Positions 58,430 through 60,200 of a stretch of DNA of 64,000 bases are shown one piece after another. Position 1 is the stretch's first letter. Each line of letters starts with the position of its first letter. Made by a program: the position numbers and the translations under genes. The stretch is from Kondoa subrosea (Eukaryota): the NCBI GenBank assembly GCA_039545335.1, contig BCIN01000003.1:868001-932000 (forward strand), given 5' to 3'. The notes under the pieces are model-generated. The model searched no databases and was not told where the DNA came from. It was given only the letters and a program-made list of their open reading frames with translations.

Positions 58430-60200
58430 ATGAATCCTGCTCCTATTGCGAGCTGTAGTAGAAGTGTGAAAGGCAAAAGCCCAGCTCCTCGCGAAGTCAA
58501 AGTGAGCATGACCAAATTTTCAATCTGAGCTCTGAGGGCTTACTTCAACCTCAGAAGCGCTATGCTTGCACTCACGAAGGATGTGACAAGGCCTACACCA
58601 AGCCTGCTAGACTCAAGGAGCACGAGCGCGTTCATACTGGCGAAGTAATTGCATTCAAAATTTGCTTTGACCAGTCGAACTCATTCATCTATGCTTATAG
58701 CGACCTTTTGTCTGCTCTCATTGCAATCAGAGCTATCGAAGAGACACTCACTTGAACGCTCATTTGCGAACTCATCTTTCCGAAGAAGATAAACCCTTGG
58801 GTTGCACGCATTCTGGCTGCACCAAACGCTTCTGGACCAACCAGCATTTGCGCTCTCATGTTGCATCCTGTCATGAAGGTGGTCAAACTTTTGCCGTAAG
58901 CTTTCAATTCCTGTCTATCACTCTCTGTTACTTCTCTCTTCTGTCACAATTATTATCTGTCGTTATCATGGCCAACAACCGCATGGCTTAGTCAGTTCTT
59001 GCGTGCTTCTACTCTGTCAAAGGAGTGTTCGGTCAAACGAACGTAAGAGGAAGACACCATTTCGCAAAGAGCGTTACAAGCATGCAAGATCAAGTTCTCT
59101 TTATTGAGTCCAGCAGTGGCCCTTCGGGGCAGAGTTGAAGTTTGGACGCTGCCTTTTCGAGCAGATAGAGCCTTTGTCGCAAGATAATTGCTCGCGCCAA
59201 AGTTCTTAGTTACATTGTTGTCATTCTTTTCTCCTTCGCATGTCGTTCTCGGAGATCTGAAACTGATTGTAGATCGATCTCTACAGTGCGATCAATGCGA
59301 AGACAGTTTTACCAAACATCATCAACTGAGATCTCATGTCGCTGAAGCTCATTGCCCTCCTGGGACCAGGCCATTTCGTTGCGAACACGAAGGTTGCGAC
59401 AAGAGCTTTTTGACTGGGAGCAAGCTTCGCGCTCACGCTAAGACGCATGATCGTGAGTTTGCTTTTGCCGTGAAGACCTTGGCTAAGACTTTGTTTTAGA
59501 GTCGCGCTATACCTGCGGACATCTTGCTTGTGCAACTCTTCCACAAGGGCCTCCTACGTTCCCAAACTGGACCGCTTTGCAAAAACACACCAAGACGGAT
59601 CATCCACCTGTTTGCCATCATCCGGATTGTTCTGAGAAGAGTTTCGCTTCTCAGTCTGCTTTGCGAACTCATTTGTCCGCTGAGCATAATCAAGTAATCG
59701 AGGCCCCCAAAGCCAAACGCAAGCGAAAAGCCAAGCAACAAGATCCTTCTGATCTCACCGATACTGGAAATGATACTGCGAGGGAATTGGAGGAAGAGTT
59801 GACTGCTGGATCTTCCAAGGTTCTTTCGTGCCCTCATCCTGGCTGCAAGTTCACTGCTCGCAAGCAACACGTTCTCGAAAGGCATCAGAGCAATGCTCAT
59901 CGCACGTCGACCCCCACTTCCACAGCCATCGATCTTCTGACCGGTTACAATTACCTTACTGCACCTGTTGTTCAGTATGATGAAGATGATCAAACACCAG
60001 TCAAGCGTCGCAAGCTACTCGATCGTATCTATCCATGTCCAATTGATCAACTGGATGCTTTTGATGTTGCGGTCGCATGTCAATTCGCTTTCAAGCGGCA
60101 ATTCGATGTAGCAAGGCATTTGAAGGCATCTCACGGCGTAGAAGTGGATGATGAGTACCTGACTGATGTTCTCAAGACTGCTAGAGCTGTTGCTGTGTAA
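58430..60200 (+). CDS. PZF1: Transcription factor IIIA-like protein with nine C2H2 zinc fingers
   Basis: Nine fingers counted, including C..GC.KAYTKPARLKEHERVH, RFWTNQHL, FTKHHQLRSH and F..WTALQKH, which match fungal TFIIIA patterns. Confidence 0.8.
58990..59217 (+). ncRNA. Candidate structured intronic RNA element in the 391-nt TFIIIA intron (58896-59286)
   Basis: 12-bp helix 58997-59008/59078-59089; C-UUCG-G capped hairpin 59119-59130 inside a GTCCA/TGGAC stem; CTTTG/CAAAG stem; ANANNA (AGATCA 59087) and ACA (59212). Confidence 0.5.

What the first reader, a model, noticed from the sequence alone, without database searches (positions are those of the whole stretch)
58896..59286. Exceptionally long, highly structured intron between zinc fingers 3 and 4 of TFIIIA
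Seen in sequence: a 391-nt intron in a window where introns are about 50 nt. It contains a 12-bp helix (TCTTGCGTGCTT 58997-59008 with AAGCATGCAAGA 59078-59089), an inner GTTCG/CGAAC hairpin, a GCCC-TTCG-GGGC tetraloop hairpin within a GTCCA/TGGAC stem, and a third CTTTG/CAAAG stem. There is also an internal GTAAGA donor (59043) downstream of AGs near 58990-58995; read-through of the intron stops at 58991, leaving a 3-finger protein. Established: plant TFIIIA is regulated by a structured 5S-rRNA-mimic cassette exon (P5SM) that senses ribosomal protein L5; fingers 1-3 mainly bind DNA and 4-7 bind 5S RNA. Inference: this is a convergent fungal splicing-regulatory RNA controlling TFIIIA. Alternatively it is an intronic H/ACA RNA (AGATCA H-like box at 59087, ACA at 59212). 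I see no convincing primary-sequence match to 5S rRNA.
Basis: partly seen in the sequence, partly recalled or inferred. Interest (0 to 1): 0.72.

Follow-up and report, generated by a model that had tools for sequence, protein, structure and literature searches.

The report
snR191-type snoRNA inside fungal TFIIIA intron
The long intron of this yeast's TFIIIA gene carries a well-known small guide RNA (yeast snR191, human U19) that marks two conserved uridines of the large ribosomal RNA for modification, so it is an ordinary kind of gene in an unusual host rather than a 5S-RNA-like splicing switch.

Summary
The 391-nt intron (58896-59286) after finger 3 of a Pucciniomycotina TFIIIA gene is real. 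It does not fold better than shuffles, and the 12-bp helix is at chance level. No 5S mimicry was found.

It holds a box H/ACA snoRNA of the snR191/U19 type (about 58981-59226). Two hairpin pockets spell overlapping targets, 2 nt apart, in helix 69 of large-subunit rRNA, and an H box lies 14 nt from pocket 1. This arrangement arose in 3 of 121,374 shuffles. RNA contigs of close relatives in 4 of 4 runs laid cover this part of the intron and not its flanks. Their changes spare the core (1 of 84 sites, against 38 of 145 elsewhere) and destroy the internal donor.

This genome's NOG2, the usual fungal host, has only short introns, so the snoRNA appears to have moved. One defining feature fails: the terminal box position reads UCA, not ACA. 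Modification itself is untested.

The scan earlier saw a 311-nt intron at this site in another genome and called it ordinary; it also found snR191-type RNAs in other hosts.

The parts
58430..60200 (+). Host gene, TFIIIA-type C2H2 zinc-finger protein; exons 58430-58501, 58555-58644, 58701-58895, 59287-59452, 59500-60200
   Evidence: Sequence and frames; zf-C2H2 matches; homologues named transcription factor IIIA by their sources (P0011, P0154); exon 1-2-3 joints in RNA contigs of relatives (table 7)
58896..59286 (+). 391-nt host intron; likely branch site CTGAT 59263-59267
   Evidence: Branch site inferred from consensus; no contig bridges exons 3 and 4
58981..59226 (+). Predicted snR191/U19-type H/ACA snoRNA, about 245 nt; ends inferred from geometry
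   Evidence: RNA contigs cover 58987-59220; fold; pocket test
58981..59085 (+). 5' hairpin: lower stem 58981-89/59078-85, upper stems 58995-59002/59064-72 and 59003-10/59049-57, two apical hairpins
   Evidence: All pairs standard; ties for the minimum free energy of 58978-59095; probability 0.53; apical pair change G-C to A-U at 59027/59042
58990..58994 (+). Pocket 1, 5' guide strand (5 bp to rRNA 3' of the first target U)
   Evidence: no change listed
59073..59077 (+). Pocket 1, 3' guide strand (5 bp to rRNA 5' of the first target U)
   Evidence: no change listed
59087..59092 (+). H box AGATCA (ANANNA), 14 nt from pocket 1
   Evidence: no change listed
59111..59220 (+). 3' hairpin: lower stem 59111-18/59213-20, inserted hairpin 59119-30, upper stem 59137-45/59197-205, variable apical domain
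   Evidence: Forms in the unconstrained fold; probabilities 0.90 and 0.999; pair change C-G to U-A at 59149/59164
59131..59135 (+). Pocket 2, 5' guide strand (5 bp)
59207..59213 (+).
59221..59223 (+). Position of the terminal box, 14 nt from pocket 2; reads TCA, not ACA
   Evidence: not covered by any RNA contig
58997..59089 (+).
   Evidence: -75.7 against -74.6 kcal/mol for the H/ACA fold; chance level

Best explanation
The intron is long because it hosts a box H/ACA snoRNA, the orthologue of yeast snR191 and human U19. TFIIIA pre-mRNA is spliced normally, and the excised intron is trimmed to an RNA of about 245 nt that H/ACA proteins protect (inferred). Its 5' hairpin pocket pairs 5+5 bases around one uridine of the helix-69 loop of large-subunit rRNA, and its 3' pocket pairs 7+5 bases around the uridine two places on (complementarity shown). 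Cbf5 then makes the pseudouridines equivalent to yeast 2258 and 2260 (inferred). The snoRNA has left its usual fungal host, the NOG2 intron, for another ribosome-biogenesis gene (short NOG2 introns shown; direction of the move inferred from published distribution).
For: 1. The two pockets, read separately, give targets that overlap without conflict and merge into one 14-mer. It stands in a 28S oligo printed in PMC13000458 Table 1 and in locus L180, which Rfam calls eukaryotic LSU rRNA.
2. Both pockets in order plus an H box: 3 of 121,374 shuffles, and 1 place in the 64-kb window on both strands.
3. H box and terminal-box position each lie 14 nt from their pocket; 14-15 nt is the published spacing (PMC5499648).
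4. The 3' hairpin is the free minimum-energy fold, and the 5' hairpin is within 1.1 kcal/mol.
5. RNA contigs in 4 of 4 runs laid cover 58987-59220 at contig depths of 13-933 in the three larger runs, with no cover on the intron flanks; exon pieces are at 3-6.6.
6. Listed changes hit 1 of 84 core sites and 38 of 145 other sites (Fisher p 9e-8; 1 of 50 and 38 of 129 away from contig ends, p 1e-5); two pairs change on both sides.
7. NOG2 of this genome has 7 introns, none over about 60 nt, and gapped patterns found no second candidate with pocket 1.
Against: The terminal box reads UCA; Canzler 2018 reports ACA varying only in its middle base. Rfam finds nothing in the intron at E up to 10, and the snR191 model finds nothing in the genome. 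This organism's own large rRNA is missing from the assembly, so the target comes from other eukaryotes. Single pockets are common by chance: 908 of 1,118 shuffles had one with an H box against 3,039 uridines. The target was recognised after looking, and the core was defined after I had seen the variant table. Contigs cannot fix ends, strand or level. The runs were chosen because they hold this stretch, may be one campaign, and no DNA run was laid. No contig links the RNA to TFIIIA exons in those relatives. One variant breaks a lower-stem pair (59112), and two sites break apical pairs.
Confidence: 0.92

Rival explanations
1. It is an snR191 descendant in which only the 5' pocket works; the RNA ends 3 nt after the ACA at 59212, or the 3' hairpin is crippled by the UCA box.
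For: The only ACA near the end is at 59212; listed contigs end at 59203-59215 and one at 59220; the 14-nt position reads TCA. Canzler 2018 predicts a different target for hairpin 2 in some fungi.
Against: Pocket 2 has 12 perfect pairs, flanks a stem of probability 0.999 and shows no listed change. One fragment reads to 59220, beyond ACA+3. An ACA at 59212 would be 5 nt from the pocket. This rival is a sub-case inside the main confidence.
Confidence: 0.12
2. A convergent P5SM-like element: a structured cassette exon or retained intron that senses L5 or TFIIIA and controls TFIIIA output.
For: Position in TFIIIA; AGs at 58990 and 58994 with GTAAGA at 59043; the 47-nt version would shift the frame; 16 of 23 bases match own 5S rRNA at 58983-59005.
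Against: The 5S alignment score is reached by 277 of 326 window segments and 743 of 1,000 shuffles. The donor is changed at both G and T in one variant. The AGs are pocket and stem bases. No contig shows a joint at these sites (thin exon cover). Orthologous introns are short in 28 of 28 loci.
Confidence: 0.03
3. An ordinary long intron or a different stable RNA; the helix-69 match is chance.
For: No Rfam match; folding z near 0; earlier notes judged a similar intron ordinary; the fungal SRP model finds nothing in this genome, so some abundant RNAs are unplaced.
Against: 3 of 121,374 shuffles; selective conservation of pockets and stems; RNA cover confined to the predicted gene; the fold is two hairpins, not a rod.
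Confidence: 0.05

Closest known systems
Saccharomyces cerevisiae snR191 (Rfam RF01263), H/ACA guide for 25S pseudouridines 2258 and 2260
   Same: Intronic, two-pocket guide for the two helix-69 uridines (bioRxiv 2024.02.02.578723; PMC8476143); similar size (model length 273).
   Different: Host is TFIIIA, not NOG2; too divergent for the Rfam model; terminal box position reads UCA; branched insertions in both hairpins.
Human U19 / SNORA74 and microsporidian U19/snR191
   Same: Orthologue assigned by target (PMC5499648). That U19 is intronic and has an extra hairpin is recalled, not checked.
   Different: Different host gene; no Rfam match at E up to 10.
Plant 5S rRNA mimic (P5SM) in TFIIIA pre-mRNA
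   Same: A structured RNA inside a TFIIIA gene.
   Different: P5SM is a conserved suicide exon with a premature stop, homologous to 5S rRNA and skipped on L5 binding (PMC3378873). Here there is no 5S likeness, no conserved donor, and the RNA accumulates apart from the exons.

Membership tests
Box H/ACA snoRNA | Two hairpins joined by a hinge | tested here: met
   the 5' hairpin shares the ensemble with a competing fold
Box H/ACA snoRNA | H box ANANNA about 14-15 nt from the first pocket | tested here: met
   AGATCA at 59087, 14 nt
Box H/ACA snoRNA | ACA (ANA) box about 14-15 nt from the second pocket, 3 nt from the end | tested here: inconclusive
   The genomic position reads TCA, which is not canonical. 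The true 3' end is unmapped and no relative covers the site. If ACA is applied strictly, this feature is not met.
Box H/ACA snoRNA | Bipartite pockets leaving U-N unpaired | tested here: met
   5+5 and 7+5 Watson-Crick pairs
Box H/ACA snoRNA | Stable discrete RNA | tested here: inconclusive
   Contig cover limited to 58987-59220 in 4 of 4 runs; contigs cannot show ends, strand or level
Box H/ACA snoRNA | Binds Cbf5, Nhp2, Nop10 and Gar1 and directs pseudouridylation | not testable with these tools
   Needs bench work
snR191 / U19 | Pockets 1 and 2 target the two helix-69 loop uridines, 2 nt apart, in this order | tested here: met
   That these two uridines are yeast 2258 and 2260 is recalled; the paper's figure is an image.
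snR191 / U19 | Match to Rfam RF01263 or the U19 family | tested here: not met
   orthology rests on targets and architecture
snR191 / U19 | Location in the NOG2 intron (usual, 170 of 249 fungi; not defining) | tested here: not met
   NOG2 introns all short; counts from PMC8476143 Table S6
P5SM | Homology to 5S rRNA | tested here: not met
   no 5S match
P5SM | Conserved cassette exon with a premature stop | tested here: not met
   Donor lost in a variant; 51-nt cassette has no stop; absent from 28 of 28 orthologous introns by length
P5SM | L5 binding changes splicing | not testable with these tools
   Needs bench work

The most novel reading that the evidence does not exclude
After moving into TFIIIA, the snoRNA became a regulator of its host. 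The 5' domain is bistable (H/ACA fold 0.53, 12-bp helix 0.47) and the terminal box is weakened to UCA, so H/ACA protein supply would decide the fold. The fold would in turn free or block the branch site (58989-97 can pair 9 bases with 59261-69), tying full-length TFIIIA, and so 5S rRNA synthesis, to snoRNP assembly. A lineage-wide tolerance of non-ACA boxes would also explain the reported loss of most H/ACA snoRNAs in some Pucciniomycotina.
Probability: 0.06. Interest if true: 0.72.

Novelty: new member of a known kind. Interest (0 to 1): 0.3.

Why it matters
It replaces a striking guess (a fungal 5S mimic) with a known RNA, and gives a quick test for other long fungal introns called ordinary: look for the two helix-69 pockets. 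It places snR191 outside NOG2, one of the most conserved snoRNA-host pairs in fungi, in a gene that serves 5S rRNA synthesis. It also shows an H/ACA RNA that Rfam misses, in a subphylum reported to have lost about 86% of them (Canzler 2018), which suggests a detection gap. The UCA box, if real, is a small surprise for snoRNP specialists.

Tried and rejected
Rfam: nothing in the intron.
5S mimicry: best 16 of 23 bases, chance level.
C/D snoRNA, U5, U1, SRP, RNase P/MRP and telomerase RNA: set aside by eye on recalled motifs. U1 lies elsewhere (4 matches). The fungal SRP model finds nothing in the genome, which is uninformative.
Paralogues: the intron is single-copy by BLAST. Two gapped patterns gave 0 and 2 matches; the second, on contig C2, lacks the 5' strand of pocket 1. 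The patterns cover only limited spacings.
Homologues of the RNA: none in 32 metagenome TFIIIA-type loci. The short BLAST hits in L005 and L023 fall in what looks like coding sequence. The pocket-like pair in L013, L015 and L016 arose in the scan without the H-box requirement, and I saw no H box by eye in L013. So no alignment or covariance model was built, and covariation rests on strain-level variants only. Four of the 32 loci were dropped from the intron count: L010 and L036 lack a full exon; L034 and L035 are other zinc-finger genes.
Viral collection: four scans gave nothing useful; the 117 matches of the 14-mer there are not rRNA.
Own rRNA: 18S, 5.8S and the helix-69 motif are absent from the assembly.
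Guide strand with branch site: reached by 137 of 2,000 shuffles, so weak.
Absence of RNA cover on the intron flanks is weak evidence on its own.
Badis 2003 was not held, and the supplements of Canzler 2018 could not be read; they may already list this family for Pucciniomycotina with a location.

Full report
Observation. The gene at 58430-60200 encodes a C2H2 zinc-finger protein whose homologues are named TFIIIA by their sources. Its introns are 53, 56, 391 and 47 nt. The intron is not unusually structured: z -0.09 for the whole, at best -1.87 in 36 windows, and a perfect 12-bp helix appears in 44 of 150 shuffles. The organism is a basidiomycete with an 18.9-Mb assembly. The best named matches to its NOG2 are Pucciniomycotina, led by Cystobasidium minutum at 69% identity.

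The 5S-mimic idea. The genome's own 5S rRNA aligns to the intron with a score reached by 277 of 326 window segments and 743 of 1,000 shuffles. Rfam finds nothing in the intron at E up to 10; I did not check whether Rfam holds a P5SM model. Of 32 related loci from metagenomes, 28 hold both flanking exons, and their gap is 52-134 nt. The internal donor at 59043 loses both G and T in one variant. The cassette from the first AG is 51 nt, in frame and without a stop; the one from the second AG is 47 nt and shifts the frame. Plant P5SM is a conserved suicide exon with 5S homology (PMC3378873, passages). None of that is met here.

RNA evidence. Twenty-one phyllosphere metatranscriptomes share 4-6% of the sampled words; I laid 4. 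In all four, contigs fall on 58987-59220. Listed contig depths are 13-933 in three runs and 3.4 in the smallest, while the intron flanks have no cover and exon pieces are at 3-6.6. Exon pieces show exons 1, 2 and 3 joined and differ from the window by about 10%, so these are close relatives, not this strain. The tool warns that contigs cannot show ends, strand or level. The runs were found through this stretch and may be one campaign, no DNA run was laid, and no contig bridges exons 3 and 4. I take the pattern as moderate support for a stable intronic RNA.

What the RNA is. Refolding gives two hairpins with internal pockets. Pocket 1 (58990-94 and 59073-77) sits between a lower stem (58981-89/59078-85) and an upper stem (58995-59002/59064-72), with AGATCA 14 nt downstream. 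Pocket 2 (59131-35 and 59207-13) sits between 59111-18/59213-20 and 59137-45/59197-205. The targets read from the two pockets overlap without conflict and merge to GTAACTATGACTCT. I recognised this as helix 69 from memory and then checked it. It stands in a 28S oligonucleotide of PMC13000458 (Table 1 passage) and in locus L180, which Rfam calls eukaryotic LSU rRNA. The 32 loci hold it by construction of the search and show only its wide conservation. The two unpaired uridines are 2 nt apart. Yeast snR191 guides pseudouridines 2258 and 2260 of helix 69 (bioRxiv 2024.02.02.578723, passages; PMC8476143, passages). That these are the same two uridines is recalled.

Chance. Single pockets mean little: 908 of 1,118 shuffles had a pocket with an H box against the 3,039 uridines of L180, and 104 had two pockets with targets within 10 nt. 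Pockets on both helix-69 uridines arose in 1 of 1,118. In a larger run, both in the right order arose in 97 of 121,374 shuffles, and with an H box in 3; the real window has one such place on either strand. Shuffles were of 2-nt blocks. Allowing for a few dozen known guide pairs that I might have recognised, the result stays strong.

Variation. Of the changes listed (3 rows were not shown), 1 of 84 core sites is hit against 38 of 145 others (p 9e-8); away from contig ends, 1 of 50 against 38 of 129 (p 1e-5). I defined the core after seeing the table, though from target pairing. Two apical pairs change on both sides (59027/59042, 59149/59164), and four more changes keep a pair. Against this, 59112 breaks a lower-stem pair in one variant, and 59168 and 59175 break apical pairs in two. 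The 12-bp helix is unchanged, but most of its bases are held by the H/ACA fold anyway; it takes 0.47 of the ensemble against 0.53.

The weak point. Fourteen bases from pocket 2 the genome reads TCA (59221-23). Canzler 2018 finds ACA highly conserved, with rare changes only in the middle (PMC5824354, passages; supplements not readable). The ACA at 59212 is 5 nt from the pocket and inside the guide strand and stem, and one fragment reads past it to 59220. In an archaeal system ACA is dispensable for typical reactions (PMC7075261, passages), which may not carry over to fungi. The end must be mapped.

Host change. snR191 was found in 249 of 263 fungi and at the NOG2 intron position in 170 of 249 (PMC8476143, Table S6, part 1 of 19 of the supplement), so other locations are not rare. 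This genome's NOG2 has seven introns, none over about 60 nt, placed by eye. The Rfam snR191 model finds nothing in the genome. Two gapped patterns found only this locus and one site lacking half of pocket 1. The TFIIIA copy is therefore probably the only one. Canzler 2018 reports 86% apparent loss of H/ACA snoRNAs in two Pucciniomycotina; a divergent copy like this suggests missed detection. Searches for TFIIIA as a snoRNA host or for a fungal 5S mimic (listings only) showed no such report, and PMC8476143 does not mention TFIIIA in its main text. The library is partial, and Badis 2003 was not held (nothing seen). PMC4937481 and PMC5499648 were seen as passages.

Earlier notes. Two notes describe a 311-nt finger-3/4 intron in another basidiomycete as ordinary. 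I could not see that sequence; it is long enough to hold the same snoRNA, which is a prediction to test. Two notes report snR191-type RNAs in NOG2 and in a phosphatase gene; I saw them after recording my own reading.

Verdict. It works like an H/ACA guide and is very probably the snR191/U19 orthologue (0.92), filed by targets and architecture, with the terminal box unresolved. Shown: intron, complementarity, geometry, selective conservation, RNA cover in relatives, short NOG2 introns. Inferred: processing, protein binding, modification, relocation. New member of a known kind in a host I did not find in print; interest 0.3.

Noticed in passing
window 59268-59286: The 3' splice site region folds into a 6-bp hairpin (-5.3 kcal/mol) right after the branch site; the 100-nt window from 59220 has the intron's best z, -1.87.
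   Followed up: partly
window 58989-58997 with 59261-59269: The pocket-1 guide strand can form 9 pairs (two G-U) with the intron's own branch site; 137 of 2,000 shuffles do as well.
   Followed up: partly
window 59017-59020, 59032-59037: Both apical hairpins of the 5' domain carry GTCAAA in or beside their loops; each is altered in a variant.
   Followed up: partly
G000, whole assembly: A 5S rRNA gene on C7 has no other rRNA in the 20 kb around it; 18S and 5.8S were not found. Four U1 matches score below the Rfam cut-off, and no fungal SRP match was found.
   Followed up: no
L158 (NOG2), intron near 1421-1377 on the minus strand: One NOG2 intron seems to begin with GC or an unusual donor; boundaries were placed by eye.
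   Followed up: no
L159-L190: Several bacterial genome records in the collection hold eukaryote-type large-subunit rDNA, probably contamination; L180 was confirmed by Rfam.
   Followed up: partly
window 59502-60197: Relative P0151 has about 50 more residues between fingers 7 and 8, partly from an unspliced intron, including a further finger-like stretch that this gene lacks.
   Followed up: no
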